From NCBI RefSeq assembly GCF_964204645.1, contig NC_134027.1, positions 12,246,485 to 12,310,484 of the forward strand: a DNA stretch of 64,000 nt, read 5' to 3'. Numbering within the stretch: the first letter of the stretch is position 1; the number at the start of each line of letters is the position of its first letter. Position numbers and translations under genes: made by a program. The stretch is from Tubulanus polymorphus (Eukaryota > Animalia > Nemertea). Positions 2,986-56,356 of this stretch are shown here, one piece after another. The notes under the pieces are model-generated. The model was not told the origin of the DNA and did no database searches. It saw only the letters and a program-made list of their open reading frames with translations.

Positions 2986-3294
2986 TTTCCCCTTTAATTA
3001 TTTGTTATTTGTTCTCTCATCAATTTCGTCTCTGACTTAACTTGTATTCACCTTTGTTTTAATTTAAGTGCCCCCTAGTTTGTCTTTCTTTTTACTACTG
3101 ACTTTAAGTTTCATTTATATTTATACTCACTATTGTTGTTTATAATCACCCCTTAGTTTGCTTCCCTTTAATCTATTTTAGCGTGTAACTGTTTCTACGT
3201 TAATTTTCCTTTAGTTTGTATCATCTCTGATTACTTGAATTAGTCTCTTTGTCCCTGGATTGTATATATATCTCATAATTTCTGTAGTATCTCA

Positions 3295-3340
3295 TTATTC
3301 CTGAAGATGACTATTAGGATATAGTCGAAACGTTGAATAA
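3295..3340 (+). ncRNA. Minimal type I hammerhead ribozyme motif in the Penelope pLTR
   Basis: TTATTC-CTGAAGA-T-GACTAT(TAGGAT)ATAGTC-GAAA-C-GTT-GAATAA: 6-bp stem I, CUGANGA and GAAA cores, 6-bp stem II, GUU cleavage triplet. Confidence 0.8.
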
Positions 3341-37433: not shown

Positions 37434-37953
37434 GTAGGTGTAATGGTTATAAACAATTATATAGTTTAGTTTTAGAATGGATTATTTGATGACGGTAGTC
37501 ATGTCATAGTTTTTTTTGAAGGTTTTGTTTTAACTCTACATTCTTCGGTTTTTATTAGGCCAGCCGTAGGCTGAGCCTATTACTATACAAATGGAGCGAA
37601 TTTAAATGACATGGTTTCCACACAAAAGGCTCTTTTGCTTGCCAAGTGAGGGCATATTCGAACAAATCACGTATTTAAGCGTAATCCATTCTCGGAATCG
37701 TAGCGAGCAGAATTTTGAAATAGGGTCTCATAAAAATGTTTTCTGCATTTTTCACGAAAGTTAAATCGGGAAAATTTCAATTTTTATCAGCCAATCAGGA
37801 AGTTGTGTCTTCCCTGTGATTGGTTTATCTGAAAATATCAGCAGCTGTTCACGTGAATTATCGCGATTTCATTACTGGCGCTTTTGCGCATGACGTCATG
37901 TATCAACACGTGACAATACTTCCGCGTTCGCTACGTGTTCGCTGATTGGCCCA

Positions 37954-38529
37954 AGTAATAGGGGTAATAGGCTTTCATACCAAAGGTCGAACGGTCGAGC
38001 CCATTAAAAAACAAAATATTAAAAGTAATTAAAAACTATAATATATTTTCATAACCGCGTGCATTTTATATCAAAACTAAATATTTATTCTAAGATATCA
38101 ATAATATAAAAAGCATATTGTATTAAATCAATTGGTCGCTCCGCTTCGCCACCGCTCCGCTCCGCGACCAATTGATTTAATTACAATACACAAATTCAAA
38201 TAATCAAATATATTCAAATGATAATAATTATTCTATTATTCAACTGAAATGCACGCGGTTATGAAAATATATTATAGTTTTTTAATTACTTTTAATATAT
38301 GTTATTAATGAACTCGATCATTAAACCTTTGATATGAAAGCCTATTACCCCTATTACTCTTAAAATATTCATATATATATGAATAAAATATAAATCATTG
38401 AACTTCTAAAATCAATTTTAATAAAAAATATAGTATTAAAATGGAAGCAAATAAATACTACTGCCCAACATGTAATATCGATATAGATAAATCCCAAAAA
38501 GCAAGACACAATAAAACTATAACACATTT
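37954..38529 (+). repeat. Polinton left TIR (about 576 bp), containing a 405-bp internal palindrome
   Basis: Reverse complement of 55780-56356; 37954-38358 folds back on itself. Confidence 0.95.
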
Positions 38530-41500
38530 AGAGAATAAATTGAAACTAGAATATAAAGATGATATATTAGAAACTAAATTAGAAGAATTAAAGAATGAAA
38601 AAGAAACATACAAATGTGATACATGTAATCAATCATTCAGTGATAAAAGATATTATAAAGAACATTTAAAATCTATAAGTCATATTAGAAATAAGAATAA
38701 TGATATTTTAGGTGAAGATTATTTTGATAATGATAACGATAAGAAACAGAAGACAATTAAAAGAATAAAAAATAAATTAAACAATAAAAGACCATACATG
38801 GAAGATGTAAGAAATTATATTAATTCATTAGATAATAAAAAAGATATAGAGATAACCGAAGCATTTAAAAGTGATATTGGTCCAGCAGCTATCGAGTTTA
38901 AATTTCATAAAGGTAAAACATTAGAAGAAAATAAAAAACATTTAGAAAATATGAAAGAAATAATAAAAATAATTACAGATGTTGAATATCCTAAAATTAG
39001 TATATCAGTTAAAGTAAAGTTTATAAAATCTGAAGATAAACCAATATATAATATAAATTCTCATTCACAACATATTATATCTAAACAACATATAGATGAT
39101 AAATTAAATAAATGTTATAATGAAATAAAAACTAAAATAGAAGAGAAATATTTTGAAGGCTCTGGTTTAATATTTGATGAGATAATATTTATAACTTTAC
39201 ATGTTTATAACACAAAATATAATAAGTTAACTAAATCAAAACCAATTGATGAAAATAATTTATCATATGATAAAGATGATAGTATAAATGGAATAAGTTA
39301 TATTAAACTACCATTTAAAACTAATGGTGTAATAAATATACAAAATTTTGATAATAAATGTTTTATATGGGCTATAATAAGTTTTTTACATCCAACAGAA
39401 GAAATTACACATAGTTTTAGATTAACTCATTATAAACAATTTGAAAATAATTATAAGATAGATAAGTATCCTGTTAGAATTAAAAATATTCCAAAAATAG
39501 AAAGAGATAATAATCTTAAAATAAATGTATTTGATTTGATTAAATTACCAAATACAAAAGGAAATAATATTAAACATTATACATTAGAACCTTTATACCT
39601 ATCAAAAGATTATGATTCAAATAATGTTATAGATATACTATATTATGAGAATCATTATATGTGGATTAAACAAATCGATTTATTTTTTAGAACAGAAAGT
39701 GATCACCATAATAAAATATATCTATGTAGAAAATGTTTACATAAATTTAGTAATGAAAGTACATTATTAAATCATAAACAACTATGTGATAATCATGATT
39801 ATTGTAAATTAGTTTTACCAAATGAAAAAGATAAAATATTAGAATTCAAAAAATATGATTACAAAAATAAAGTACCATTTGTAATATATGGAGATTTTGA
39901 ATCATTAAATAAAGAATTAACAGATAAAGATAGAAAAGATATATATTATAAAAGAAAGAAATTAAATTCTAATGAAAGTGATTATTCAGAAGAACCACCA
40001 AAAACAAATACTATTAAAAAGATTCATCAATCAGCTGCAGCTTTCGGGTTATATATAAAATCTGATTATCCAGAACTAATTGAAAGTGAATATTATCATT
40101 GTAGAAATGAAAATGTTATCAATCATTTTTGTGACTTATTAATTGAATATGAAATAAGATTTAGTAAATTATTGAATACAAATAAAGAAATAATTATGAC
40201 AGAAGAAGATAAAGAAGTATTTGAGTTTGCAGATAAATGTTATTATTGTGAAAAGATATTTAATTATAAAGATAAAAAAGTAAGAGACCATGATCATTTG
40301 AATGGAAAGTTTAGAGGCGCTGCACATGAGAATTGTAATTTGCAAGCCAAAAAAGTAAATTTTGTCCCCATTATATTTCACAATTTATCGGGGTATGACG
40401 CGCATTTATTCATTAAGCAACTGTGTCATAAAATAGAAGAAATTAATAATGAAATAGAAATATTAAATTCAAATAAATCAAAAGATAAAATACCAACTTA
40501 TAAATTTAGAATGTTAGCTAAAACATCTGAGAATTATATATCATTCCAATTTGGTTGTCTAAGATTTATAGATTCATATAGATTTTTAAATAGTTCATTA
40601 GATAACTTATCAAAATCATTAGTTGATGATGAATTAAAGATATTAAAAGAATATTACCCAAATTATGATGATTTTAAATTAATGAGATATAAAGGCGCAA
40701 TTCCATATTCTTTCTATAAAAATCATAATGATTTTAAAATAACTGAATTATTGAAAGAACAATTCTATGATGAATTAAAAAATGAATATGTTAAAGATGA
40801 AGTATATAATAGAACATTGAATATTTGGAATCATTTTGAAATTAAAAATCATGGACAATTAGTAGATTTATATTTAAAATCAGATGTATTATTATTAACC
40901 GATATATTCGAAAGGTTTAGAGATGTAAACCTAAAATATTTCAATATTGATCCTTGTCATTGTTATTCATCTCCAGGATTAACATGGGATTGTGGATTAA
41001 AATTTACAGATATAAAAATGGATTTGTTAACAAATATAGATCAATTACTATTATTTGAAAAATCTATAAGAGGAGGTGTTTCAGGTGTATTGGGTGATAG
41101 ATATTTCAATGTAAATGATAATCCTGGATATAAATTATTATACATAGATGCAAATAATCTTTATGGTTGGGCAATGATGGAACCACAACCTTATGGGATG
41201 TTTGAAATAACTGAAGTTTTACAAATTGATAAATTTGATTGGAAGAAAAGAATCCTAGATATTGCAGATGATTCAGATACTGGTTACTTCTTCGTTGTAG
41301 ATTTAGAATACCCTGAAAATATTAAATTCAAATCTAGAAATCTAGCATATTGTCCCGAACATAAAATTGTTAAACATGAAGAATTATCAAATTATCAAAA
41401 AAGAATTAAACCTGAAAATCATATTCATACTGAAAAGTTAATGGTAACTCAAGAAGATAAATATAATTATGTAGTACATTATAGAATGTTGAAGTTTTAT

Positions 41501-42472
41501 TTGAATCAAGGAATGATATTAAAAAAAGTACATAGATATATTTCATTTAATCAATCTAAGTGGTTAGAAAAATATATAGATTTTAATACTACACAGAGAA
41601 CTAAATCTAAAACTGATTTTGAGAAGGATTTTTTTAAGTTAATGAATAATGCATTTTATGGAAAAAACATGTGAAAATATTAGAAATAGAAATGATATTG
41701 AGTTAGTTAGTAATAGCAAAAGAATTAGACATTTGCAATCGTATCCGAAATTCATAGGTAATAGAATATTCGATGAAAATTTAGCAGCAGTTAAGATGAA
41801 GAGAACGTCTATTAAATTCAATAAACCTATTTATGTTGGCGCATCGGTTTTAGAGTTATCAAAGCTATTGATGTATGAATTCTATTATAATGTATTGCAA
41901 CCCCATTTTGGGGAAAAAATATAGAAATCTTATATCTAGATACAGATTCTTACATATTAAAGATAAAAAGTGATAACATAACTGATGATTTAAAAATATT
42001 AAATCATCATTTTGATTTCAGTAACTATCCTAAAGATCATGAATTGTTTAGCAATGATAATAAAAAAGTTCCTGGGAAGTTTAAGGATGAATTAGGCGGT
42101 GAAGAAATGATAGAGTTCATTGGTATTAGATCTAAAATGTATAGTTATAAAACTAAAGAACATGAAGCTAAAAAGTTAAAAGGAATAACCAAAAATGTAG
42201 TAGAAAAGAATATTCATTTTAAAGATTACATCAATTGTATATTTAATGAAGAAGTTAGAAAACATAAAATGAAATGTTTAAGATCTGAAGATCATGAAAT
42301 GTATATTGAAGAGATAGAGAAGATAAGTCTAAACCCATTTGATGATAAAAGATATATTTTAGATGATGGAATCCACACAGTCGCCTATGGTTGCAATTTA
42401 GATGAATATATAAAATTCAAAAGAGAAGAAACAAAAGAAAATGAGATTATGAAAAGGATTCTAACGTGTTAA
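38441..42472 (+). CDS. Protein-primed family B DNA polymerase with N-terminal C2H2 fingers and inserted endonuclease VII-like domain; two frameshifts
   Basis: YGDFES (ExoI), RDHDHLNGKFRGAAHENCN (EndoVII-like), FHNLSGYDAH (ExoII), YLKSDV (ExoIII), YIDANNLYG (A), KLMNNAFYGK (B), YLDTDS (C, at about 41932), PGKFKDE, KLKGI. Frameshifts in A-runs at about 41665 and 41916. Confidence 0.95.
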
Positions 42473-42500
42473 TAAATTTCAATAAAAATTTGTATAATAA

Positions 42501-42842
42501 ATGGAGAGTAAACAAGTACACAATGAATTCTTAGATAGAATTAAAGATACTTCAAGCGTCAAATCTGTAGATTATAAATTTAAAAAGTTAACAGAATTAA
42601 CAATTCACAAGAAATATTTAATTACAAATATTGTTACAGTTACTAACAAATATGGAGATAAATTAGTAATTCATTTAGAATATGAAGGATTAAAAGGAAA
42701 TAAATATAAATTCAGAACTTATTTACCAGATAGATTTCATAGATTATCAAGTGAAGATCTAGAAGAATTATGTTCTGGAGATTTCTATTTCGTATACAAA
42801 GGTAAGAATGAAAAAGGGCACCATGAAATAGATTTCGAATAA
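42501..42842 (+). CDS. Small Polinton protein of unknown function (113 aa, beta-rich)
   Basis: Intact ORF with TAAATG start, directly downstream of pPolB. Confidence 0.75.
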   Translation: MESKQVHNEFLDRIKDTSSVKSVDYKFKKLTELTIHKKYLITNIVTVTNKYGDKLVIHLEYEGLKGNKYKFRTYLPDRFHRLSSEDLEELCSGDFYFVYKGKNEKGHHEIDFE

Positions 42843-42859
42843 GAAAATATATAAAATAA

Positions 42860-43615
42860 ATGGTAGAATTAAAAGAATATAGAATATATGTTGATTCTAG
42901 AAAACTTACAAATTATAAATCTCATAATTTATTAGTACAATTAGATAGAGAATTCAAAAATTGTGTTGATTTAAAATTAGTTAATATAAGTTTATGTAAT
43001 TCTTTTTACAATGTATCGGATAAAACTTTTGAACATAGAGGGTTTATGATTTATATGAGAAATAAAGATAAATGGTTTCATATATTTTTAAAACCAGGAT
43101 TATATAATTTAGAATCATTAGCGCAGGAAATTAATAGAAGAGCTCGGTTGAAAATCGGGGGCACTTCTGTATTTGAAATTAAATTTAATAAAATTGATAG
43201 TACTAATAAAATAAGAATAAAGATAACTAATGAACAACATAAATTCATGGTAAACAAACCAATGGCTAAAATGTTAGGAATTAAACCTCTTACAGTTACT
43301 GGAAACGCAGAAGGCAGCTCAAATATAATACCTTTTACACACTTTTATATTTATTGCAATTTAATCGAGCCTACAAAAACTTTCGAAGCAACTAAAGATA
43401 CAATTTGTAGTTCTAGTATACTAAATATTTTACCGCTAAAAAATGTTAAACAATTTGGAACTCAAATAAATTATAATTTAACAGAATGTGATTTTAAACC
43501 TTGCATTCCTAAATTTAATAATTTTAAATTAGAAATAAGAAATCATAATGGATACTTAATTGATTTAAATAACTTTCCTGTGATATATGAATTAGTTATA
43601 AGATGTAGAGAGTAA
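42860..43615 (+). CDS. Minor capsid protein (penton, single jelly roll)
   Basis: L..ISL.NSFYNV, PGLYNL, FYIYCNLIE...ILNILPL, and C-terminal LEIRNHNGYLIDLNNFPVIYELVI, the pattern of Polinton/virophage pentons. Confidence 0.75.
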   Translation: MVELKEYRIYVDSRKLTNYKSHNLLVQLDREFKNCVDLKLVNISLCNSFYNVSDKTFEHRGFMIYMRNKDKWFHIFLKPGLYNLESLAQEINRRARLKIGGTSVFEIKFNKIDSTNKIRIKITNEQHKFMVNKPMAKMLGIKPLTVTGNAEGSSNIIPFTHFYIYCNLIEPTKTFEATKDTICSSSILNILPLKNVKQFGTQINYNLTECDFKPCIPKFNNFKLEIRNHNGYLIDLNNFPVIYELVIRCRE

Positions 43616-43631
43616 TTTTTTTGATATATAA

Positions 43632-43988
43632 ATGAATATAACTGTTGGACCGAGTATATGTTTTGGATTTGATTTTAAACGTGAGAAAGAAATGAAATTT
43701 AATATTAATGATGTAATAACACATATCAAAAATATTACATTTTCTAATGAAACAACATTTGAGTATGAAACAACAATAGATAAAGAAACTTTAAATGTAG
43801 AAAAGATTACTAATTTAATTAGAGAATCTTTAAGATTTTATGAATTAGATGAAGATTTTATAATCGATGATATTAAAAAAATAATAATTGAAATATATAC
43901 AAATGAAACTAGTAATGAAATAAATGTTGAAATAATCATAAATAAGATAACTAAATATTTTGAAGATAGTAATTTTTTTGATAAATAA
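43632..43988 (+). CDS. Hypothetical acidic protein (118 aa)
   Basis: Intact ORF preceded by the TAATTTTTTT-N6-TAAATG motif. Confidence 0.7.
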   Translation: MNITVGPSICFGFDFKREKEMKFNINDVITHIKNITFSNETTFEYETTIDKETLNVEKITNLIRESLRFYELDEDFIIDDIKKIIIEIYTNETSNEINVEIIINKITKYFEDSNFFDK

Positions 43989-44210
43989 ATGAGTGATAAT
44001 AAGTGGATAATAACTGGATTATATAATGGCGCATTACTATCAGTTGGAACTGTTGGTTATTCAATGGTATTAAAAAAAGTATTCAAAATGGGAAGTGTTA
44101 ATGTTGATAGATTTGATATCAATGATATTTTGAAATTAACGTTAGCAGTTACTTTATCTAATTTAACTATTGATTATTTGGAAAAACAAAAATATATTCC
44201 TCCCATATAA
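43989..44210 (+). CDS. Small hydrophobic/membrane-associated protein (73 aa)
   Basis: Hydrophobic segments GALLSVGTVGYSMVL and ILKLTLAVTLSNL; motif-preceded start. Confidence 0.7.
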   Translation: MSDNKWIITGLYNGALLSVGTVGYSMVLKKVFKMGSVNVDRFDINDILKLTLAVTLSNLTIDYLEKQKYIPPI

Positions 44211-44234
44211 ATGCATAATTTTTTTGCTAAATAA

Positions 44235-44657
44235 ATGGCTTCTGCAATTATAACTATTATAGGATCGGCAATTGTTAACGCTTTAGCATTTACTGGTGGT
44301 GGTTATTTATTTAAACATATTGATAAAAATAGTTCATTAGGAGAACAAAGAAGACATAACTTAGCGTTAGAGAAATATAATAAAGCTGCAGAAGAATATA
44401 GAGAAAAGAGACAAAACTATATGGATTACATCAATAAAGAATTATATGATCAGAAGATTTCACACAGAGATTTTCAATCAGTTGATGATACAATGAGTTT
44501 ATATAACGCAGTAACCAATAAAGAAAAATTACATCTATACAAACCTAAATTATCAGATTATTATACCCCAAGTAAAGAACAACAGAAATATGAAATAATA
44601 TGGATTTTAGGTGGAACTGTTATTGTTATATTTGTTGCTTATAAATTTACTAATTAG
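44235..44657 (+). CDS. Membrane protein (140 aa) with Gly/Ala-rich hydrophobic N-terminus, helical middle and C-terminal TM
   Basis: ASAIITIIGSAIVNALAFTGGGYLF; IIWILGGTVIVIFVAY. Confidence 0.75.
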   Translation: MASAIITIIGSAIVNALAFTGGGYLFKHIDKNSSLGEQRRHNLALEKYNKAAEEYREKRQNYMDYINKELYDQKISHRDFQSVDDTMSLYNAVTNKEKLHLYKPKLSDYYTPSKEQQKYEIIWILGGTVIVIFVAYKFTN

Positions 44658-44676
44658 TAATTTTTATTCTAAATAA

Positions 44677-45111
44677 ATGGAAGATAAAGTTGATAGTATT
44701 GATATTATTCCTCATGATATAAATAAAACTAAATTAAAAACATATTTAGAAAAACAAATATTAGAATTTGAAAGTGACTTAAAGATAAAAAAGAAAAAAT
44801 ATTTAAAAAGTAAAATTATATATTATTTGATTATAAGTGGTTCGGTTACAATTAGTTCTGTAATAACATTTCTAGCAATATTCAGCCCATTAACAACTTT
44901 AGCTATATCAATTGGTGTGTTAGGATTAAGTTCAAGTGTTTTAACTGGTATAAGTTCAAAATTAAATATAAAAAGTAATAAAGAAAAAATAAAATCTAAT
45001 ATAAAAGAAATTAATAAATTAAAGAACACACTAGATTATATAATAAGTTTAAATGGTCATATAACAGTTGAAGAACAAGATAAATTATTAAAAGAATTAA
45101 TAAATTATTAA
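44677..45111 (+). CDS. Two-TM hairpin membrane protein (144 aa)
   Basis: About 45-aa hydrophobic stretch IIYYLIISGSVTISSVITFLAIFSPLTTLAISIGVLGLSSSVLTGI flanked by Lys-rich helices. Confidence 0.75.
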   Translation: MEDKVDSIDIIPHDINKTKLKTYLEKQILEFESDLKIKKKKYLKSKIIYYLIISGSVTISSVITFLAIFSPLTTLAISIGVLGLSSSVLTGISSKLNIKSNKEKIKSNIKEINKLKNTLDYIISLNGHITVEEQDKLLKELINY

Positions 45112-45127
45112 TTTTTTAATTATATAA

Positions 45128-46516
45128 ATGGTAGATAGTTTTCCAAAAGCTTTCCGATATAATAAATCAATTTAATATAATATTCCAGCAATAGATTTTA
45201 ATAAAGATATTACATATAGAAATGAAGTTTTAGATTCATTAACTAATTTAGAAATTTATGTTAATGAAACTAATAATTTTAATGCAAAGATGGAAAATAT
45301 ATTTCATGTATATTTAATTAATTTTAAAAAATTGAAAGATGAAAAACAATGGTTATTAAAATCTAATATGAAGTATTGGCAGAACCAATTAAATTTTGCT
45401 GTTTATTGTGCAACAACAGGTTGTGGAATTAGTTGGAATGATCATTTGAATAATTCTAAATATAAACTAATTCAAAGTTTATTTAGATTTCATACATACT
45501 TTCAAATCAGAATAATATTAAATGAATTAGAGTGCACTTTACCAGGATCTAGGTATTTTAAAGAATTAGATAATAATATTAATTTATCTAAGTTTTATAA
45601 AATTTGCAATGAATTTAATATAGATATAAATAATTCTGATTTTAGAACAAAAATTGGAACAATAAGATCACTTCCATGCCCTAAAAAGATTGCAGAATAT
45701 TGTGCACTTCCCATACCATCTAATAGTTTTTATAATATCTATAATAATAAATTAGGTTATGGTAAAATAGAAACAAAGGATTTAGAAACATTAAATTTCA
45801 ATAAATTACCGAAATTTTATGATAATTTAAAACAAGAAAACAATAATGGTTGGGTTTATTTTATTTTAGAAAATAGTAAAGGTTTTACTAAATCAGGTAT
45901 AGAAAGAATAAATCAATCTATTAGAACTTATTTGATTTGTATTCTAGGTGCGCAAGTTGAAACAAGATCACCGATAATTGGAAATTTGAATACATCATTC
46001 GATACACAAAAACAATTTAAAGTTTTATTTGAAGATTCAATTCATAATGATAAAAATAGATCGATTCCAGAAAACATTATTAGATATCAAAATTATTTAG
46101 ATAAATCTCATGTAAGACTTAATTATTGTATAGGCCCTAATCTATTAATTATTTCTAATGATTTAGTATTGAAGATGGGAAATATAATTGGTTATAATAA
46201 TCTAATTAAAACTGCAACAATAAATAATTCATTTGGATTGAATGATATAAATAAAAAGATTATTACTGCTCCAAAATTAATGGAAGGTGAAAAAAATAAA
46301 AAACATATTCAATCAACTGAAACTAAAACTAAGAATATTAAATTAAATAATGATTCTAAAATAAAAGATTGCAATACATCAGAAAATATTAAAACTGATA
46401 ATATTCAACATGATATAATTAAACTAAATGATGATAATAAATCACATGAAAATACTAAATTAGCTATAACTTGTATAGGAATTGTAATCGGAGGAATATT
46501 ATATTTTAAATTTTAA
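45128..46516 (+). CDS. Hypothetical protein (about 460 aa) with C-terminal TM; likely start 45128 with a frameshift near 45170
   Basis: The motif-preceded ATG at 45128 opens a short frame; the frame of ORF 45290 is open from about 45176. Contains YWQNQLNFAVYCATTGCGIS; ends LAITCIGIVIGGILYFKF. Confidence 0.7.
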
Positions 46517-46532
46517 TTTTTTTATTATGTAA

Positions 46533-48140
46533 ATGGATGTAGAAGGTGGAGAAGATTATGAAATGGGAGAAATGGGAAATAATAATGAAGGATATATTGA
46601 TGATGATTATAATGATGCAGAAACTAATATTGATAATGATGATGAATCAGCATATGATTCTAATTTAGCAGATAGTGGTTCTAAAATCCCATCAACAGAT
46701 GAATTTGATAGAACAAATAGAAAGAGAATAAATACTGAAAATGAAAATCCAGATTTAGCAAGACAAGAATTAGAATATAATGAATTTATATGATTTTAAA
46801 CCTTTATTTGAAGAATCTGGTTATAATATAAATGATAGAGGCGCTAGACTTTTAGTAAAAGATTTAAAATATTTAGATGGTGAATATTATTATTATTTGG
46901 ATGGTGATAATATTAATGGTGAATATTATATTAATATCTCTTATAAAAATCAAGACAAAATATTGGCAGAATCAACTTTGAAAAAATTAGAACCAGATAG
47001 AATTAAGAAAATTATTTATAATAGTAATAAACTAGAAGATGTAACAAAAGAAGAAATAGATCACTATAAAAAATTATTTAAAATAAGAATTAATGAGTTA
47101 TTTGACAAAATCTATGATAATTTAGAACCAGAAATGGAAGAGAATAGAGATCGATTAGATAGATTAAGATCTTCAACACCCGAAACATCGAGAAGAGATA
47201 TTCAACAAATTGATAATGATTCAAATCAATTACAATTAGGAAAACATTTTGATAGCATGTTAGATGCAATTCATTCATTTGACGAAGAGATGAATAGTAT
47301 TTTAGATACACCCGGTACTGAAACTGGTATAAATCGAATACAATCTTTACTAGAAAAAGGATTATTTGATTTAACTGATGATGAATTAGAAGCATTTCCT
47401 GAACAAGCACGTAGAGAAATTAAAGGTATGCAAGAATCAGCTGATAAAATTGCGCATGAAAAAAGTAAAAGAGATATTAAAATTAGATTTTTAGAAAAAG
47501 ATAGAACTGATAAAATAAAGAAATAGAACAACTAAAATTAGATAGAGATAATAAAGTTATTGAAGAAATTGAATTTAAAAAAAGAAATGCATATTTAGAA
47601 AAAGAAATTGATGATTTAGAATATAACATAGAATTACAAAAAGAAGAAATTAAATTATTATAAAAATCATATGATTATAATATTAATAGATTAAAAGTTA
47701 TTTTTAAAGATTTGTTGATTAAACCAAATTCTGAAATATCATTAAAAGACAGAATAAAGTTATTATGTAAATTAGAAGGAATAACAATTCTTTCAATTCT
47801 AACAGCTGTTACTATGGTATTTACAACAATTGGTTTAGCTATATCAAATGCTTTGAAATCTACTCCTACTCCCAATAAACCAGATAAACCTCCAGGCAAT
47901 AATTCTATACAAGATAAAGTTAAAGATGGTTTAAAGAAATTAGCAAAATATTTATGGGAACTATCTAAAAAATCTGCTGCAGCTTTACCAGGAGTTATTG
48001 CATCAATTGTTGGTTTTGTTTTAAAATCTGCAGGAAACATTATTAACTTTGCTGCTGAACATATTATTTTATTTTTAATTACAGTTGTAAGTGCTATTAT
48101 TTTTGGTTTAGTAAATATGATATCAAAAAATATCAAGTAA
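46533..48140 (+). pseudogene. Long acidic/coiled-coil protein with C-terminal hydrophobic helices, broken by several frameshifts or stops
   Basis: Overlapping pieces 46533-46793, 46780-47526 and 47712-48140 behind a single motif-preceded start. C-terminus EGITILSILTAVTMVFTTIGLAI...AAALPGVIASIVGFVL...IILFLITVVSAIIFGL. Confidence 0.7.
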
Positions 48141-48183
48141 ACCATGATATCAAAAATAAATAATTAATTTTTTTGTTAAATAA

Positions 48184-49428
48184 ATGAGTGGGAGTTATAT
48201 CAATCCTAAGAATCATAGAATATCTAATGCTATTAAAGCAGAAAGATCACATCATATAATTACTCATAACCCTTCAAATATTAATCCCGATGAAACTTTA
48301 TACGTTAGAATCCCTCGATTAACACAAAATACTTTTTATGTTCCAAATAGTATTTATTTATCAGCTGATATAAAAGTAATCGGTAATAATAATAATTATG
48401 TTGTTGATAATGTTGGAAGATATTTGATTAAAAAGTTAACAATAAAGATTGGTCCAGAAACAGTTTTCTCATTAGATGATTATAATTTATTTATGTATTA
48501 TAAAGATTTATGGTTAACTAAAGAAAATAGAAATAATATGATATTTCAAGGAATCCAATCAGAAAACCAAAATAAATTAAGATCAGAAGCTAATAGCGCA
48601 ATATTAACAAATGATGTAGATAAATTGATAAAAAGTATATATGGAAGCAAATATAAAATTCCATAAGACTTTGAATTGATAAATAATAATGCACCTTTAT
48701 ATAAATACGCAATTCAAGAAGATATTATATTCGAGATAACATTTGCTCCTGTAAATGAAATTGTAATATCTAGCGTTAATAAAGATATGAGTTATAAATT
48801 ATCGAATATATGTTTAGAATATGATACAGTAACTGATGAAAATATTTCAAGTATAATTCAAACTAAATACAATCAAGGATTTTCATTATTATATGATTAT
48901 ATTGATAAATTTAAAACTGTAACTATTAATGCAAATGATGAAATAATAAATGAGAATATTAACTTCCCTAGAAGATCTATTAAAGGTATATTAATATTTT
49001 TTACCATTGGAACGTATACTAATGGCGCAATAAATGTTGATAATTATTATAATCCTGAAATAACAAAAGTAGAAATAACTATCGAAGGATTAGCAAATAA
49101 AATATTTTGTCAAGGAATGAGGATGATAGATCAATGGGTAGAAATTAAAAAACATTTTATGAATGAAAAAGTAAAATCATTTGAAAATTGTAACATTAAT
49201 CAAATTGATTATTATACCGGTAATAAATATGCATCATGGTTAGATTTTAGAACAACTGAAGATAATTCATTACATGGTTCTGGAAAAAAACTACAAAATA
49301 CAAAAGATGGAATACAATTATTCATAACAAAGAAAAAAGGAATCAAAAATTTTAAAATGCACATTTATATTATATCTGACGCACAATTAAATATTATAAA
49401 TTCACAATTAGATAGTGTTATGTATTAG
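48184..49428 (+). CDS. Major capsid protein (double jelly roll), about 414 codons, with one in-frame TAA at 48664
   Basis: THNPSNINPDETLYVRIPRL, NVGRYLIKKLTIKIG, YKLSNICLEYD, NINFPRRSIKGILIFF, YNPEITKVEITIEG, WLDFRT..DNSLHGSG, YIISDAQLNI. ORFs 48184-48666 and 48676-49428 are in the same frame. Confidence 0.82.
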
Positions 49429-49460
49429 AATTTTAACTTTAATAAAAATATATATAATAA

Positions 49461-50216
49461 ATGGAAGGAGGTAAAGTATATAAACATATTCCATACATCG
49501 ATACACATGAAAATAATGATGGTTTATATTATGTAATACCTTGTAATATAGCTTTGATATTTGATCCTATTTTTAAAAATTATAAAACTAAACTGATAGA
49601 AATCGATAATAATAAAAGTGGTGTTGTTGATAATTTAAGTAATGTAATTGATAATAATGTAATACCTTCTACATCTAATAACGTAATACCTTCTACATCT
49701 AATAACGTAATACCTTATACATCTAATAACATAATACCTTCTACATCTGTAATACCCTCTACATCAAATAATATAATACCTTCTACATATAATAATACAA
49801 TAATATTAGATGTTAGTGAAAATAGAAATTATTGTGGTTATTGTAATGGTGAATTTTCAAACGCTCCATCAAATTGGAATAAACATATGATTACAAATTC
49901 ACATATTACTAATGTTATAGAACGTGTTGGCAAAAAAGAATTTATAGAACACCCATTTAGATATGTTACAAAATTTGTTTCAAATAAAAAAGTAAATGGT
50001 GAAAAAATATATGAAGATTTATTATTAGCAACACCTTATAAAGATGAATTAGATTTAACCGATGCTAATGAAATATTAGGATCAAACACTGTAAATGAAA
50101 TATTAGGATCAAACACTAATAAAGATGATAATGATAATGATGCCATAAAGCACCCACATGATGATATAGTTACAGTTAAACATATTGATAATAAAGATTC
50201 TATAAAACTTAAATAG
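49461..50216 (+). CDS. Hypothetical protein with NNVIPSTS repeats and a C2H2-type finger
   Basis: About five 24-bp repeats at 49650-49795; CGYC...HMITNSH; two NEILGSNT repeats. Confidence 0.75.
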   Translation: MEGGKVYKHIPYIDTHENNDGLYYVIPCNIALIFDPIFKNYKTKLIEIDNNKSGVVDNLSNVIDNNVIPSTSNNVIPSTSNNVIPYTSNNIIPSTSVIPSTSNNIIPSTYNNTIILDVSENRNYCGYCNGEFSNAPSNWNKHMITNSHITNVIERVGKKEFIEHPFRYVTKFVSNKKVNGEKIYEDLLLATPYKDELDLTDANEILGSNTVNEILGSNTNKDDNDNDAIKHPHDDIVTVKHIDNKDSIKLK

Positions 50217-50239
50217 AAAATAATAATAAATTTGATTGG

Positions 50240-50428
50240 ATGAATAAGCATAACAATGAAACAACTATTGATGATTTAGTAAAAAATGTGAAAAAGGTGA
50301 AAAAGGTGAAAAAGGTGAAAAAAAATTATAAAGATGTTGATGTAGATTCGGTAGAGCATTTAAATATGTTGTTAGAGCCGTCTGATAGTGAAAGTGATTC
50401 AGAAATTGATTATCTAAAACTCGAATAA
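50240..50428 (+). CDS. Small hypothetical protein with KKV repeats and acidic tail
   Basis: GTGAAAAA(G) x4; lacks the TAAATG start and may be a detached C-terminus of the upstream ORF. Confidence 0.4.
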   Translation: MNKHNNETTIDDLVKNVKKVKKVKKVKKNYKDVDVDSVEHLNMLLEPSDSESDSEIDYLKLE

Positions 50429-50584
50429 TAAAGGTTGAAAATTGTATAAAATAATAGTAAATAAAAAAGGGGGTTTAAATTATTTAAGGTATCTAATAGG
50501 GTATCAGGTATTAGGGTATCAGGTATTAGGGTATCAGGTATTGGGGTATATAATAGGGTATCTAATACATAGGTATACAAATAG

Positions 50585-51199
50585 TTATTTTATAAATTTA
50601 TATTCATATGGAAATTGTAATCTCAGTAATAATTTTGAACCTTTATTATTTTTTAATTTATTCATATATTCATCATGTAATTCAGGAGGTATAATTTGAT
50701 TTTCTTCCAATGATTGTTGCGTAGATTTTCTATCTTTGTTGTAGAATAAAACTAGAAATCTTATATTCTCTCTAAAATCTTTAACAATTGAATTATATTT
50801 TTGATTTAAAACCCAAGTTGTTATCCCAAAATGTCTACCAGAGAAAGCTAAATAACATAACTCGCTTTCTCTAATTTTAGAATCATGTAAATTTGCGCAA
50901 TCATCGATAATAAATAATGTATTAGATCCTTTATAAATATCTAATGCAATTTTTATACAATTATCTAAATTTTCTTTTACTGTTTTAGAATTTAATATAA
51001 TAAACTTTTTATCTTTAAAAACTATATCTCTATTATACGTTTCATTCATTTCATAAGTAGGACAGAATAATATTATATTATCAAAATGATTCTTATAAAT
51101 AGTTTCTAATAAATCTAATATGAAATGTGTTTTACCACAATTTGTAACTCCAGTAACTAACATATTATGTGGTTCAAATATAAATAAATCTTTATTCAT
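50585..51199 (-). CDS. A32-like (FtsK/HerA) genome-packaging ATPase
   Basis: Walker A GVTNCGKT, Walker B FIIDDC, SGRHFGITTWVLNQ, R.N motif. Confidence 0.93.
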   Translation of the reverse strand: MNKDLFIFEPHNMLVTGVTNCGKTHFILDLLETIYKNHFDNIILFCPTYEMNETYNRDIVFKDKKFIILNSKTVKENLDNCIKIALDIYKGSNTLFIIDDCANLHDSKIRESELCYLAFSGRHFGITTWVLNQKYNSIVKDFRENIRFLVLFYNKDRKSTQQSLEENQIIPPELHDEYMNKLKNNKGSKLLLRLQFPYEYKFIK

Positions 51200-52280
51200 T
51201 TATTCTTTTAATTTTACTAGATAAAATCCATTCATTAAATTTATCATCATATCCTTTATATTTCACCAAAGAATACTTTTTTCCTTTAAGAGTTTTTGTT
51301 TTCAATACTTTTTCTATTTTGTATTCTATTTCATCTGGATTTGGTACTAATGATAATTCTTGTTCATAAAAATAACCTAATATTTCTTCATCTTTTAAAT
51401 CAAACAATTTATAAACAAAAGGTTTAGTTAATATTATCTTTTTAATCTTGCATATTTCTTCTGTAAAATTAGGGGTATAACCTTTATAAAATATTTTTCG
51501 ATATTTAGAAATTCTAACATGTTGTCCTATTTTAAATTTAGGTTCTCCAAAATCGTGTGTAACAAATGCTCCATATAAATTATTCCAAACTATTTCTGAA
51601 TTATCTTCTTTTCTAGCTTGTATAGGTTTCATATTTATAGAACTATGTTTAGAATTATTATAACCTTTAACTAAATCATCTAACACATCGATATATTTAT
51701 ATGTTTCATTAGCGGTGAAATATTTCCACATTCTAGTTTTCAATGTTTTATTAAATCTTTCTATAATAGATGCTTTTTTATCTGAATGTGTTGAAAAATA
51801 TTCTACATCGTTATCAGATAATAGTTTTTTAAAATGTTTGTTATAAAATTCCTAACCTTCATCAAATTGTATTTTATCTGGGATAGCTTCTTTAAATATT
51901 AATTTGAAAGAATTTGTAACTTCTATACCAGTTTTATTTTTAATCGGGATACTCCATGCGTATCTACTGAATATATCTATAACATTTAATATCCAGAAAT
52001 ATCCTTTGTTATATTCTTCTAAGTTTTTCATATCAATTAAATCAGCTTGCCATTGCTGATCGATATATGAAACCATAACTTTTCTTGTTAAATATTTTTT
52101 ATCCATCTTTTTATGAATTTGATATGTGGGTTGATTTTGTAACCATGATTTTAATTCACTATATTTTATTTTTTCTTTATCAGATTTAATTTTATCCCAT
52201 AATTCCGAAACACTTGAATATGAAACTTCACTTTCTGGGTTGTAATATAAATCTCTTAAATATTGTTCTTTTTTCATCAT
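51192..52280 (-). CDS. Retroviral-like (RVE) integrase with C-terminal chromodomain; in-frame TAG at 51852-51854
   Basis: QWQADLIDM, VIDIFSRYAW, IQFDEG*EF, KASIIERFNKTLK, YNNSKHSSI..KP, KGYTPNFTEE, YKIEKVL...LVKYKGYDDKFNEWI. Confidence 0.95.
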
Positions 52281-52283
52281 ATT

Positions 52284-52679
52284 TTAATCCATTAATAATA
52301 TTTTAGATTTATTTTCATTTGATTTATTTTCTGGTGGTTTATTGTCTGTACATGGATAACTAAGTTTCCGATCATCTTTATCATCAGATTTGAATTTTGA
52401 TTTATATATTACACCAGATAATATAATAACTGTTACTAATCCAATTGTAATATATAATTTATAATTACTTCCAGCATTAGAAGAATTAGATGGATTATCA
52501 TTTGAATCAATACCACCGTGTGGGTGCCGTACGGCATCATCAGATAATTTCTGTGATTCATTTATATCAGTTAATTTCTTTTTCTTAGCTTTTTTTAATT
52601 CTGAAGATCTTTTACCTAATTCTCTTGCCCATTTAATTTGTTTCTCGGATCTAGCCTTTTTCTTAACTCCATCACTCAT
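52284..52679 (-). CDS. Basic single-pass membrane protein (131 aa)
   Basis: K/R-rich N-terminus; TM segment LYITIGLVTVIILSGVIY. Confidence 0.75.
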   Translation of the reverse strand: MSDGVKKKARSEKQIKWARELGKRSSELKKAKKKKLTDINESQKLSDDAVRHPHGGIDSNDNPSNSSNAGSNYKLYITIGLVTVIILSGVIYKSKFKSDDKDDRKLSYPCTDNKPPENKSNENKSKILLMD

Positions 52680-53277
52680 TTATTTTAGTTAATTTTTGTT
52701 CTGATTCATTTTCTGTTTCGACGTTTTGTTGTAGTACATCTGTTTCGTTCTTACCTGATTTATATTCCATAGGTTTGATGTTCGAAAATGTTATAACTCC
52801 AGTAGAAATCAACGTCATAACCGATCCTAATTGGAATGAAGCATATCCAACCCATTTTTGTAATTCAGTCATAACTAAATAGTCATTTTTCAAATCATTA
52901 TATAATTTATTTTCATCATCAATTGGTATTAACTGGTTACATAATTTTGAATAACATTTGATAATACCATCTGAAATAGAATCATTTATTCTAGCTAATC
53001 TTGACTCTTCATAAATCTTAAAATATTTAATTACTTTTTCTTTGTTCATATTATCTAATTCTTGAAAAGTGATTGTTTTACCAATAAACTCTTTAGTTTT
53101 TCCACTCGCAATCAATAGTTCTAGATGATGCTTACAATATAAATAGTATTCATAATCAATATTACTATCAATTTTATTATCACATTTAGTTGCCACATTA
53201 TCATTATCATCTGTTAGACCTAAATCTTCCAAAGTTTTTTCAACTTTAACATTATTCTTATTCGATTTCTTAGACAT
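52672..53277 (-). CDS. Hypothetical protein (201 aa)
   Basis: Intact ORF with TAAATG start, overlapping the next gene by 8 nt. Confidence 0.75.
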   Translation of the reverse strand: MSKKSNKNNVKVEKTLEDLGLTDDNDNVATKCDNKIDSNIDYEYYLYCKHHLELLIASGKTKEFIGKTITFQELDNMNKEKVIKYFKIYEESRLARINDSISDGIIKCYSKLCNQLIPIDDENKLYNDLKNDYLVMTELQKWVGYASFQLGSVMTLISTGVITFSNIKPMEYKSGKNETDVLQQNVETENESEQKLTKINE

Positions 53278-53502
53278 TTATATTAGAGAAATTTAATAAG
53301 AATAGTATTATAAGTATTCTTCAAATGATACTAGCTAGTTAAAGTTAAAGAATTCTAGTATTAGTTATTGTTTTTTTATTATTTTTTATTTGTGATATAA
53401 AGTATTCTTTTTTGAAAAGAAAATATTAAAAATTAAAATAGAAATAATAGATAGTTGAAGGTATGTAATTTTTATTATATTTTATTTGAGATATATTAAT
53501 CT

Positions 53503-54168
53503 TTAACCACTCATTAAAGACTCAACGTATTGTTCATTATTTGGATTATTATTCCATTGATCAATAAATTTCTTTGCTTTTGTTAACTGTTCTAAATATA
53601 ACTGTAAATCTAGTTTATTAGATTTGATTTGATTTTCTTTCTTTTCTAAAGGCCTTAAATTTTTCCAACCCCAAATAAGTTTTTTATTATATTCATCATT
53701 CATGTTAAATTTAGATATTGGTAACACGTGATCAATGTGGTAATAATCCCCATAATTATCTATATTCATTTTATCATCGAATTGAAATATAATCCATGAT
53801 TTGAGAAATTCATCTGAACAACCCAACAAATTAGTTAATGTTTCTGAATGTGTTTCTTTGTTGAATAATTGTGTTAATCTAGTCCTTAAGCATTGTTTCA
53901 ATCTAAAATTAAGATCTGTTTGATATCTTTCTCTCATATATTTTGTCATATAATAATTATAATGTTTTATATTATCTTCTCGATATTGTTTGGTGTATAG
54001 TTTAGTACAAGTTTTACAACAATATTGAAAACCATCTTTGCTAATCTTACGCTTACTAAATTCTGTTAATGATTTATCTAATTCACATTTAGAACATTTC
54101 TTGTAATATATGTTTATAACGCCAGTGTTATTTGTAATATTGATAGTTTGTGGTTGTTCTGGTTCCAT
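53503..54168 (-). CDS. Zn-binding / HNH-like endonuclease (221 aa)
   Basis: CSKC...EF...DG...CKTC; NYGDYYHIDHVLPI...WKNLRPL..KEN..KS. Confidence 0.75.
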   Translation of the reverse strand: MEPEQPQTINITNNTGVINIYYKKCSKCELDKSLTEFSKRKISKDGFQYCCKTCTKLYTKQYREDNIKHYNYYMTKYMRERYQTDLNFRLKQCLRTRLTQLFNKETHSETLTNLLGCSDEFLKSWIIFQFDDKMNIDNYGDYYHIDHVLPISKFNMNDEYNKKLIWGWKNLRPLEKKENQIKSNKLDLQLYLEQLTKAKKFIDQWNNNPNNEQYVESLMSG

Positions 54169-54304
54169 TTATTATACGTATTTTTTTACTAAATTGGTTA
54201 ATAATTTATAATCCTCTTCCATTTCTTCGACCAACGTTATCCTTTTTCATTCTTCGTTGCTTTTGATAAGTTGTTTCGATTCCTTGATATCTAAATAATA
54301 CAAG

Positions 54305-54770
54305 CGGCTGGCCATTTGTGGCCGGTTTTGTTTAATGCGCATGCGTTAAACATAATTATAAATTCATTCTATAAATTATGTAAAATAGAAATGACCGACA
54401 TAAAATATCAAAACGTGTTCGCACTAGGTAAAACCGCTCTTATTGAAGCGTTTTTGCTTAATGCGCATGCGTTAATCATAATTATATATTCATTCTATAA
54501 ATTCTGTAAAATAGAAACAACACATGTGTTACATGCGTCACATGCGGCCATTTATGGCCGGTTTTGCTTAATGTATATGTGTTAATCATAATTATATATT
54601 CATTCTATAAATTCTGTAAAATAGAAACAACTGAACATAGAAAATTCAAACGCATTCATGTCCGCGTCACATGCGTTACATGCGTCACATGCGGCCATTT
54701 GTGGCCGGTTTTGCTTAATGCGTATGTGTTAATCATAATAGAAACGACTGAACATAAAAATTCACAAATC
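54305..54770. repeat. Four degenerate 100-150-bp tandem units with short palindromes inside the Polinton
   Basis: GGCCATTT(G/A)TGGCCGGTTTTG(C/T)TTAATG...GTTAA..CATAATTATA.ATTCATTCTATAAATT.TGTAAAATAGAAA at about 54310, 54445 (partial), 54545 and 54692. Confidence 0.85.
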
Positions 54771-55694
54771 AGATTTACACAATACATTATACAAGTTGTT
54801 CAGTCATTTCTTCCAATACATCATTTGATTTCTATAAATACAATTTATAATTACAAACATTTTTTCAATTGCTGGTAAATATTTAACTACATCAACAAAT
54901 GTTAAACTTAATCATTGGAGTCTTAATGTTTTTGAAATTCTTATATAGTTTCTTCGTCGATCTTTTGGTGATTCTATTGGTTCGATATCCATTGCTGTTG
55001 ATTCCTCAGTCAGAAAGAGTATCTTGAGTTTCTCTATCGCTTCTTGATGCGTATGACTTTTTATTAATCTAAAAGATATTAGCGGTAACTCTAGCTATCT
55101 AAAAGATATACTAAACACACTTAAATATATCTAAAGGTTTCATATTTAATAGTCTTAATAACTACAACAAACAGTACTTACATTTAGATTTATAATTGTA
55201 AACTATAAACTCCTTATTTTGTTTCGAAAGATAGAATATCCTGAGCACAATATTACAGCGTATATCCATTTCCGGGGTGATTTCTAGAATGACACGTCGT
55301 TGATTATGCCACGTCATCTAGTTCCGGTTCTAGAATATTCTACACGTTTCTGATTATGACGTGTCATAATGTCTCGTCGTTATAGTAACAACTGTAACAG
55401 CTGTGAATTTATAGATTTATTCTATAGCTCTGTACATTGAATGTATATAGGTTAAAATAGAATCATTTTCTAGTATAAACATCTAGAACAAGCGTGTTGA
55501 GACTTGTAAATTATGAGATTTGTGATTCGCTAACGTTCGCCGTATACACAACGCGTTGAAGTTGAAAAAAAATCAATAATAAAAGCATTTAGATCAATGA
55601 AATTAATTAACTCTTTACAATTGAAATATAAGCTGGTAACATATGTTTACTAGAGCTAATACAACCAACTATATAGCTGAGTATTATCGGGTGT

Positions 55695-55868
55695 TTATAA
55701 CGATTCAACATATTTTTCACTATGTGTTGAGTTCCTTAATTCGATAAATGTTTTTGCTTTAACCAACTGGACTAAAAACAAATGTGTTTTAGTTTTATTG
55801 TGTCTTGCTTTTTGGGATTTATCTATATCGATATTACATGTTGGGCAGTAGTATTTATTTGCTTCCAT
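55695..55868 (-). CDS. 57-aa ORF created by the right TIR: pPolB N-terminal zinc finger plus a novel tail
   Basis: MEANKYYCPTCNIDIDKSQKARHNKTKTHL-FLVQLVK...ESL*; 29 of the first 30 residues match pPolB. Expression unknown. Confidence 0.45.
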   Translation of the reverse strand: MEANKYYCPTCNIDIDKSQKARHNKTKTHLFLVQLVKAKTFIELRNSTHSEKYVESL

Positions 55869-56356
55869 TTTTATACTATATTTTTTATTAAAATTGATTT
55901 TAGAAGTTCAATGATTTATATTTTATTCATATATATATGAATATTTTAAGAGTAAAAGGGATAATGGGCTTTCGGGTTAAAGGTTTAATGATCGAGTTCA
56001 TTAATAACATATATTAAAAGTAATTAAAAAACTATAATATATTTTCATAACCGCGTGCATTTCAGTTGAATAATAGAATAATTATTATCATTTGAATATA
56101 TTTGATTATTTGAATTTGTGTATTGTAATTAAATCAATTGGTCGCGGAGCGGAGCGGTGGCGAAGCGGAGCGACCAATTGATTTAATACAATATGCTTTT
56201 TATATTATTGATATCTTAGAATAAATATTTAGTTTTGATATAAAATGCACGCGGTTATGAAAATATATTATAGTTTTTTAATTACTTTTAATATTTTGTT
56301 TTTTAATGGGCTCGACCGTTCGACCTTTGGTATGAAAGCCTATTACCCCTATTACT
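55780..56356 (-). repeat. Polinton right TIR (about 577 bp)
   Basis: Matches the left TIR except for clustered differences at about 55955-55980 and a few single changes. Confidence 0.95.

What the first reader, a model, noticed from the sequence alone, without database searches (positions are those of the whole stretch)
38415..54190. Polinton genes carry two fixed-spacing promoter-like motif classes resembling poxvirus late and intermediate promoters: a candidate poxvirus-dependent virophage in an animal genome
Seen: 14 of 17 Polinton gene starts read exactly TAAATG (42501, 42860, 43632, 43989, 44235, 44677, 45128, 46533, 48184, 49461 on +; 51199, 52679, 53277, 54168 on -). pPolB reads TAAAATG; only the integrase and ORF 50240 lack it. 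Seven consecutive genes (the membrane-protein cluster and MCP) share TAATTTTT(T/A)(T/A)-N6-TAAATG starting exactly 19 nt before the ATG. pPolB, 42501 and 49461 instead have AATAAAAA starting exactly 17 nt before the TAAA, with similar A-tracts before the penton and HNH genes. Known: T at -3 runs against the animal Kozak preference. Vaccinia late promoters have a T-run about 10 nt upstream of a TAAAT(G) initiator; intermediate promoters have an A-tract core plus TAAA. Virophages such as mavirus copy their helper virus's late promoter. Inference: this element may be transcribed in temporal classes by a co-infecting poxvirus-like cytoplasmic virus rather than by host Pol II. It encodes no RNA polymerase and has no introns.
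Basis: partly seen in the sequence, partly recalled or inferred. Interest (0 to 1): 0.9.

Follow-up and report, generated by a model that had tools for sequence, protein, structure and literature searches.

The report
Polinton with poxvirus-style gene promoters
A virus-like jumping element starts almost every gene with the short signal that poxviruses use for their late genes, a signal kept in its close relatives and nearly absent from sister elements, so it likely borrows the transcription machinery of a co-infecting cytoplasmic large DNA virus that has not yet been found.

Summary
The element is a decayed, high-copy, 18,403-bp Polinton (37954-56356, 6-bp target duplication). 14 of 17 starts read TAAATG against 25 of 383 other ATGs (p 3e-13). 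Nine relatives keep it at 43 of 48 starts; sister Polintons have it at 3 of 285, AT-rich ones at 3 of 54. It persists in divergent gene pairs, so it is not stop-start packing. The upstream profile (no G/C at -13..-11, T at -9 in 95%) resembles 38 poxvirus loci (T peak at -10), and the exact T-class motif retrieves poxvirus A14 promoters. Best reading: promoters for a helper virus's cytoplasmic, pox-type late machinery (about 0.6; a true poxvirus about 0.4). Against: no helper and no RNA data were found; an uncultured lineage with an iridovirus-like capsid also uses TAAATG (20% of starts); the key T is one base off vaccinia; and the two 'temporal classes' are not tied to genes across orthologs (20 of 30, p 0.12). 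Polinton-like viruses packaged with entomopoxviruses are published, without promoter analysis.

The parts
37954..56356 (.). Whole Polinton/Maverick element, 18,403 bp, GC 0.24, ends AGTA...TACT
37948..37953 (.). Left 6-bp target-site duplication GGCCCA (repeated at 56357-56362)
37954..38529 (+). Left terminal inverted repeat (about 576 bp), includes the pPolB promoter and first codons
37954..38358 (.). Imperfect 405-nt palindrome at the start of the TIR; predicted hairpin -112 kcal/mol, z -21.7
55780..56356 (-). Right terminal inverted repeat
38420..38443 (+). A-flavour promoter-like site of pPolB (AATAAAAA-N9-TAAAATG)
38441..42472 (+). Protein-primed DNA polymerase B with EndoVII insert and zinc fingers; in three pieces (frame changes). 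Polymerase identity rests on recalled motifs and matches to relatives
42481..42842 (+). A-flavour site and 113-aa ORF (start 42501)
42840..43615 (+). A-like site and 251-aa ORF (start 42860); minor-capsid label inferred, only a weak DUF5901 hit
43613..43988 (+). T-flavour site and 118-aa ORF (start 43632)
43970..44210 (+). T-flavour site lying inside the upstream coding sequence, and 73-aa hydrophobic ORF (start 43989)
44216..44657 (+). T-flavour site and 140-aa hydrophobic ORF (start 44235)
44658..45111 (+). T-flavour site and 144-aa two-helix membrane-type ORF (start 44677; weak SLATT hit)
45109..46516 (+). T-flavour site and conserved gene of about 440 aa (start 45128, confirmed by the relative's N-terminus; interrupted); no fold match for an intact relative
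46514..48140 (+). T-flavour site and gene in three pieces (start 46533; 485 aa in L002)
48165..49428 (+). T-flavour site and major capsid protein gene (start 48184; interrupted; about 415 aa in relatives; weak Capsid_N hit)
49441..50216 (+). A-flavour site and 251-aa ORF with 24-nt repeats (start 49461)
50585..51219 (-). A32-type packaging ATPase (start 51199); its TAAATG site lies inside the integrase coding end
51192..52280 (-). rve integrase with chromodomain, interrupted; TAAAAT directly before the ATG
52284..52699 (-). 131-aa ORF (start 52679); its TAAATG site lies inside the upstream coding end
52672..53297 (-). 201-aa conserved ORF (start 53277), mixed A/T site
53503..54188 (-). HNH/EndoVII-type endonuclease (start 54168), first gene of the minus-strand block, A-like site with no upstream gene

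Best explanation
Almost every gene of this Polinton lineage has the same compact signal fused to its start codon, and the signal is likely a promoter read by the cytoplasmic transcription machinery of a co-infecting large DNA virus of poxvirus type. Shown: an A/T-only tract 15 to 9 bases upstream, a near-invariant T at the ninth base, and TAAAT overlapping the ATG, kept under divergence in sequence, gene order and GC content. Inferred: a helper polymerase with post-replicative factors would start in the AAA and slip to make a poly(A) leader, which would allow translation without a templated 5' UTR. The element would then replicate with its own pPolB and package in or near the helper's factory, as mavirus does. 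No early-type promoter was found, so all genes would wait for the helper's post-replicative phase. T-rich sites (capsid gene in 9 of 10 clade members) may be stronger or later than A-rich ones; this is untested. How a chromosomal copy reaches cytoplasmic machinery is unexplained; this copy is decayed and may be a dead end.
For: Enrichment p 3.5e-13. Relatives: capsid start TAAATG in 9 of 9 loci at 52-84% identity, including a 44% GC locus; 43 of 48 starts overall; T at -9 in 95% of 57 start sites against 38% of 104 internal TAAATG. Sister Polintons 3 of 285 ORF starts, AT-rich subset 3 of 54. TAA is an upstream stop codon in 2 of 69 cases; 8 divergent pairs 8-31 nt apart carry the initiator both ways, two with the 8-nt spacing seen in the poxvirus loci. 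An IMG/VR scan for the T-flavour motif gave 49 hits, 9 at ORFs of 80 aa or more; 5 are poxvirus A14 genes and 1 more is in salmon gill poxvirus. In 38 poxvirus loci: T peak at -10 (0.75), A at -13, G/C trough at -13..-10. A matrix from poxvirus positions -16..-4 separates window starts from internal TAAATG with AUC 0.95. Four further Polinton loci (19 of 21 starts) peak at A-13 and T-11/-10 like poxviruses. Vaccinia consensus from PMC11980589 and PMC12917281: the G8R-based scaffold has AATAA 17 nt before TAAA, as in the three A-flavour sites. Precedent: EMALE types carry distinct helper-matched promoters (PMC10945749); Polinton-like viruses in entomopoxvirus occlusion bodies (PMC11296320).
Against: No helper virus was identified. 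The conserved T is at -9, one base off vaccinia's -10. An uncultured lineage with an iridovirus/marseillevirus-like capsid has TAAATG at 103 of 506 starts (6 of 7 in one locus) and a weak T rise at -10/-9; profile correlation with the window's clade is 0.74 for poxviruses but 0.58-0.66 for this lineage. Part of the AUC reflects intergenic versus coding DNA: giant-virus bins reach 0.72. The A-flavour scan was unspecific: 14 of 120 loci at ORFs of 60 aa or more, none recognisably poxvirus. The family is high-copy in the host (median depth about 580x from 1,934 million letters), which is easier to explain if some expression needs no helper. Coral Polintons are transcribed without a known helper (PMC11131425). 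The poxvirus set is about 22 orthologous genes in 38 genomes, not independent sites, and holds no entomopoxvirus.
Confidence: 0.6

Rival explanations
1. Same virophage-like mechanism, but the helper is not a poxvirus: an iridovirus-related, asfarvirus-related or undescribed nucleocytovirus with an AAAT slippage initiator. This is contained in the 0.6 above; a true poxvirus is put at about 0.4.
For: One-base offset of the conserved T. TAAATG in 20% and AAATG in 59% of starts of a non-pox lineage, with A at -1 like the Polinton. Two of the 9 gene-start hits of the T-flavour scan were giant-virus bins. Earlier scan notes describe other giant viruses with AAAATG starts (unchecked).
Against: That lineage's capsid gene has TAAATG in only 2 of 46 promoters against 10 of 10 in the window's clade. 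ASFV late initiator is TATA with variable spacing (PMC7163114); pacmanvirus late motif is TATATA (PMC11788076).
Confidence: 0.2
2. The signal is read by the host: an unusual RNA polymerase II initiator, or a translation start context on longer or polycistronic transcripts, possibly with an element-encoded cofactor among the unidentified ORFs.
For: High copy number. Several ORFs have no identified function. Polinton genes are expressed in coral.
Against: Gaps between genes are mostly 16-43 nt and divergent starts lie 8-31 nt apart, too little for a TATA box at -25 to -30 plus a 5' UTR (PMC5294985). T at -3 is a poor start context (established knowledge). A YAG acceptor lies within 10 nt of 1 of 17 starts. 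Coding strands hold about 5 AATAAA per kb with no depletion, but neither are they depleted in sister Polintons, so this test does not discriminate.
Confidence: 0.25
3. The motif is punctuation for the upstream gene: stop codon, AATAAA poly(A) signal or T-run terminator, pushed against the next ATG by compaction.
For: AATAAA overlaps the ATG in 26 of 57 starts (19 of 104 internal). Three T-flavour sites begin with the upstream stop codon. TTTTT[ACG]T is under-represented in relatives' ORFs (7 observed, 24 expected; share test p 0.008), though not in the window.
Against: Spacing is fixed to the downstream ATG, not to the upstream stop. The motif persists at first genes (pPolB, 54168), in divergent pairs and inside upstream coding sequence. 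TAA is a real stop in 2 of 69.
Confidence: 0.08
4. AT-richness and ORF-calling bias create the pattern.
For: The element is 24% GC.
Against: Composition-matched internal controls; AT-rich sisters lack it; 39-44% GC members keep it; starts match relatives' N-termini.
Confidence: 0.01

Closest known systems
Vaccinia/orthopoxvirus late and intermediate promoters (PMC11980589, PMC12917281; passages read)
   Same: TAAAT(G) overlapping the start codon; T-rich tract about 10 nt upstream (late); AT-rich core 12 bp from TAAA (intermediate). Exact match to chordopoxvirus A14 promoters.
   Different: Conserved T at -9 rather than -10; found on an integrated 18-kb element with no polymerase; no early-class promoter; function untested.
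Mavirus and type-4 EMALEs of Cafeteria (PMC10945749; passages read)
   Same: Integrating rve + pPolB element whose genes carry a compact motif matching a large virus's late promoter; different lineages carry different motifs.
   Different: Protist host, Lavidaviridae capsid, CroV helper and shown reactivation; here a Polinton-type element in an animal-type genome, with no helper known.
Entomopoxvirus-associated Polinton-like viruses (Barth et al. 2024, PMC11296320; parts 1-3 of 8 read, plus term counts)
   Same: First link between Polinton-like viruses and poxviruses.
   Different: About 12 kb, encode a cysteine protease, no rve integrase detected; the main text has no occurrence of 'promoter', 'transcription' or 'motif'. 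I did not compare capsids directly.
Yeast cytoplasmic virus-like elements pGKL (PMC6211774; passages read)
   Same: AT-rich linear elements with a TAAAN initiator that yields 5' poly(A) leaders by slippage.
   Different: They encode their own RNA polymerase and use an upstream conserved sequence related to poxvirus early promoters.
Polinton/Maverick elements of animals
   Same: TIRs, 6-bp target duplication, pPolB, rve integrase, ATPase, capsid genes.
   Different: No cysteine protease found; TIR opens with a 405-nt imperfect palindrome; pox-type start signal, which my searches did not find described.

Membership tests
Polinton/Maverick | Long TIRs, AG...CT ends, 6-bp target duplication (definition recalled) | tested here: met
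Polinton/Maverick | Protein-primed PolB and rve integrase | tested here: met
   rve E 1.8e-4, below cut-off, on a fragment; PolB motifs (recalled) and matches to relatives' long ORFs; both genes interrupted
Polinton/Maverick | A32-type ATPase | tested here: met
   Pox_A32 E 1.4e-12
Polinton/Maverick | Double jelly-roll major capsid protein | tested here: inconclusive
   Capsid_N E 0.002 on the first piece; no PDB sequence match for the family profile; not folded
Polinton/Maverick | Adenovirus-type cysteine protease (many, not all, members) | tested here: not met
   no hit among 23 ORFs in Pfam
Poxvirus late promoter | TAAAT(G) overlapping the start codon | tested here: met
Poxvirus late promoter | Conserved T at the tenth base upstream, among other T residues | tested here: inconclusive
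   T at -10 in 74%, peak at -9 (95%)
Poxvirus late promoter | [quoted passage not shown] | not testable with these tools
   no RNA holder listed
Poxvirus intermediate promoter | AT-rich core 12 bp from TAAA, no T at -10 | tested here: met
   three window sites against the G8R-based scaffold; the core has no strict consensus, so the test is lenient
Poxvirus intermediate promoter | Class is a stable property of the gene | tested here: not met
   20 of 30 ortholog pairs agree, p 0.12
Poxvirus early promoter | AAAANTGAAAA core (PMC5294985) | tested here: not met
   0 exact matches in the element; 3 in host flanks, as expected by chance
Virophage lifestyle (works like mavirus) | Promoters match those of an identified co-infecting virus | tested here: inconclusive
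   match to poxviruses in general; no helper from this host
Virophage lifestyle (works like mavirus) | Silent alone, induced and replicating on helper infection | not testable with these tools
   needs experiments
Lavidaviridae | Virophage-type capsid and protease | not tested
   no direct capsid comparison; protease not found; not filed here

The most novel reading that the evidence does not exclude
A widespread family of animal Polintons consists of endogenous virophages that have repeatedly re-tuned their promoters to different cytoplasmic helpers: several separate lineages carry the poxvirus late code (TAAATG with a T-tract), sister lineages carry a TATA initiator 2-15 nt before the ATG like asfarvirus late genes. 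The promoter code of this element would then predict an undiscovered poxvirus of its invertebrate host and supply a motif (T at -9) to find it.
Probability: 0.3. Interest if true: 0.9.

Novelty: new variant of a known kind. Interest (0 to 1): 0.72.

Why it matters
Whether animal Polintons are autonomous viruses, transposons or parasites of larger viruses is an open question. A lineage-specific promoter code makes it directly testable, with sharp predictions: poly(A) leaders starting in the AAA, silence without infection, and response of short reporters to a poxvirus. It also offers a way to infer unseen helper viruses from host genomes. If the lineages differ in helper type, one Polinton family records host-switching between classes of large DNA viruses.

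Tried and rejected
No whole genome is held, so copies in this assembly and endogenous helper genes could not be searched. Sequencing runs: no RNA holder listed; this is no evidence on expression. Reads were laid on 38360-50250 only; run X1's kind is unknown and its summed depth was not interpreted; X5's small share was not used for habitat. No capsid relatives in IMG/VR. AATAAA and splice-donor depletion do not discriminate nuclear from cytoplasmic expression here. Baculovirus-type DTAAG lies within 40 nt of 2 of 17 starts. The A-flavour scan of IMG/VR was unspecific. The fold of an intact relative of the 45128 gene (pLDDT 76) matched nothing in BFVD or PDB, PDB sequences or the Atlas. The deoxynucleoside kinase of L002 gave 4 unnamed hits and no donor. 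A VETF search returned mostly named poxviruses, plus three unnamed divergent ones; it is word-limited and found no entomopoxvirus. The wider profile search for divergent poxviruses was never run. The recalled poxvirus resolution-site pattern is not in the TIRs. In one search the label of L005 was wrong (script error; true context TAA); the tree was rebuilt, where L076 is labelled 'no' although 2 of its 5 ORFs have TAAATG. The host taxon was not determined; 'animal' rests on BEL/Pao-like and other transposon translations in the flanks (identified from recall).
Full report
Anatomy. The finding lies in a Polinton at 37954-56356 (18,403 bp, GC 0.24 in a host background near 0.36), with ends AGTA...TACT, a GGCCCA duplication on both sides and TIRs of about 576 bp. 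It carries pPolB, an rve-chromodomain integrase, an A32-type ATPase, a capsid gene, an HNH/EndoVII gene and several small hydrophobic ORFs. No protease or RNA polymerase hit was found. Five genes are interrupted; against intact relatives there are no intron-sized gaps where they align. A whole-genome run of the same organism covers the element at a median of about 580x from 1,934 million letters, mostly at 90-99% identity, so this is one decayed member of a large family.

Observation. TAAATG stands at 14 of 17 starts against 25 of 383 other ATGs (p 3.5e-13). The 22-nt T-flavour motif occurs 7 times, always 19 nt before a start; the A-flavour motif 3 times, always at a start. Shuffles give 0.01 T-flavour hits. 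All 14 sites and pPolB share a T 12 nt before the ATG.

Conservation. A capsid search returned the best 80 of 210 confirmed metagenome loci. The nine closest (52-84% identity, one clade at 100/98 support) all have TAAATG at the capsid start and at 43 of 48 ORF starts. Over 57 sites, positions -13..-11 hold no G or C and -9 is T in 95%, against 38% at 104 internal TAAATG. In 29 sister loci only 3 of 285 ORF starts have TAAATG, and 3 of 54 in the 11 AT-rich ones (ORF calls in GC-rich loci include spurious ones). Four more distant loci have it at 19 of 21 starts and do not form one clade with the nine (AU p 6e-9; 29 loci in the tree, window piece left out). Many sister loci have TATA next to the ATG instead.

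Not packing. The TAA is the stop of an upstream ORF in 2 of 69 cases. Eight divergent pairs carry the initiator in both directions 8-31 nt apart (one partner ORF is only 66 aa). Three window sites lie inside upstream coding sequence, and two first genes have the site with nothing upstream.

Comparison with large DNA viruses. Scanning IMG/VR for TAATTTTTTT-N6-TAAATGG gave 49 hits, 9 at ORFs of 80 aa or more: five poxvirus A14 genes (orthologs, not independent), one salmon gill poxvirus gene, two giant-virus bins and one unidentified. In 38 poxvirus loci 421 of 705 unique starts read TAAATG, with T peaking at -10, A at -13 and a G/C trough at -13..-10, in line with the published consensus (PMC11980589). 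A matrix built from those upstream positions alone ranks window starts over internal sites with AUC 0.95, relatives 0.86-0.87, the distant four 0.73, giant-virus bins 0.72. The three A-flavour sites have AATAA 17 nt before TAAA, as in the G8R-based intermediate scaffold (PMC12917281). Against exclusivity: a lineage whose capsid best matches PDB 6OJN/8HIF and 7YJL (iridovirus and marseillevirus capsids, names recalled) has TAAATG at 103 of 506 starts; its profile correlates 0.58-0.66 with the window's clade, poxviruses 0.74. Its capsid gene, however, has TAAATG in 2 of 46 promoters. Entomopoxviruses, true iridoviruses and asfarviruses were not sampled.

Two classes. Within the window the split is clear: seven sites with four T at -13..-10, six TAAATG sites with none or one. 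Across orthologs the class agrees in 20 of 30 pairs (p 0.12); the capsid gene is T-flavour in 9 of 10. In divergent pairs an A-tract is the other gene's T-tract. Temporal classes are possible but unsupported. No exact poxvirus early core is in the element.

Mechanism. Shown: a fixed, conserved, lineage-specific start signal with almost no room for a 5' UTR. Inferred: recognition by a helper's post-replicative machinery, slippage to a poly(A) leader, and replication by the element's own pPolB, as for mavirus. I put this at 0.6, a true poxvirus at about 0.4, host-read signals at 0.25. Open: the helper, any transcript, and how nuclear copies would meet cytoplasmic machinery.

Literature. Seven full-text searches bearing on novelty found no paper describing this motif in a Polinton; the library lacks most subscription papers and I read no supplements, which could hold promoter analyses. 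Seen: PMC11296320, parts 1-3 of 8 and term counts; passages only of PMC6211774, PMC5294985, PMC12917281, PMC11980589, 10.1101/2025.04.19.649669 (45), 10.1101/2024.03.23.586382 (46), 10.1101/2025.10.09.676808 (47), PMC7163114, PMC11788076, PMC11131425, 10.64898/2026.10.13.758929 (65), PMC10945749. Earlier scan notes hold none on this motif in a Polinton; unchecked notes on AAAATG in other giant viruses reinforced the non-pox rival.

Verdict. A real, conserved feature and a new variant of a known strategy, helper-matched promoters, here of poxvirus type in an integrated animal-type Polinton. Interest 0.72: surprising and directly testable, but resting on sequence resemblance alone.

Noticed in passing
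window 37954-38358 and 55953-56356: Each TIR opens with an imperfect palindrome of about 405 nt (arms 158 of 214 alike; z -21.7). In the left TIR the inner arm matches the outer end at seven positions where the right TIR differs, as if copied by fold-back.
   Followed up: partly
L011 (several starts); L020, L024, L032, L033, L036, L051, L060: Sister Polintons have TATA within 18 nt of the ATG instead: 5 of 6 starts in 49% GC L011 (TTTTC-N10-TATAGA-like) and 13 of 15 in AT-rich sisters, too close for a polymerase II TATA box and like the ASFV late initiator.
   Followed up: partly
L049, L080, L063, L077: More distant Polintons with TAAATG at 19 of 21 starts; with the window's clade they do not form one capsid clade (AU p 6e-9, 3-4 changes).
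   Followed up: partly
L001-L009 coding strands: TTTTT[ACG]T, the form of the poxvirus early terminator (recalled), is under-represented (7 against 24 expected) more than other T5 runs (34 against 44); not seen in the window or AT-rich sisters.
   Followed up: partly
L002:10343-10981 (-): A close relative carries a deoxynucleoside kinase gene (Pfam dNK, E 1.7e-31) with no named close homolog.
   Followed up: partly
window 54310-54781: Four copies of an 89-nt repeat in the 1.6-kb non-coding stretch between the last gene and the right TIR.
   Followed up: no
window 45109-46516; L002:2996-4321: A conserved family-wide protein of about 440 aa with a C-terminal hydrophobic helix folds with fair confidence and matches no known structure.
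   Followed up: partly
L373-L452: Capsid promoters of an uncultured iridovirus-like lineage often read TCTTG-N-TATAA shortly before the ATG (46 unique sites).
   Followed up: no
window 1159-3400: A reverse-transcriptase-like ORF (1699-2985) between perfect 374-nt inverted repeats.
   Followed up: no
window 38360-50250, run X6: Median depth about 580x from 1,934 million letters, most reads 90-99% alike: about 60-450 copies if the genome is 0.2-1.5 Gb (size unknown); joints show rearranged gene orders among copies.
   Followed up: partly
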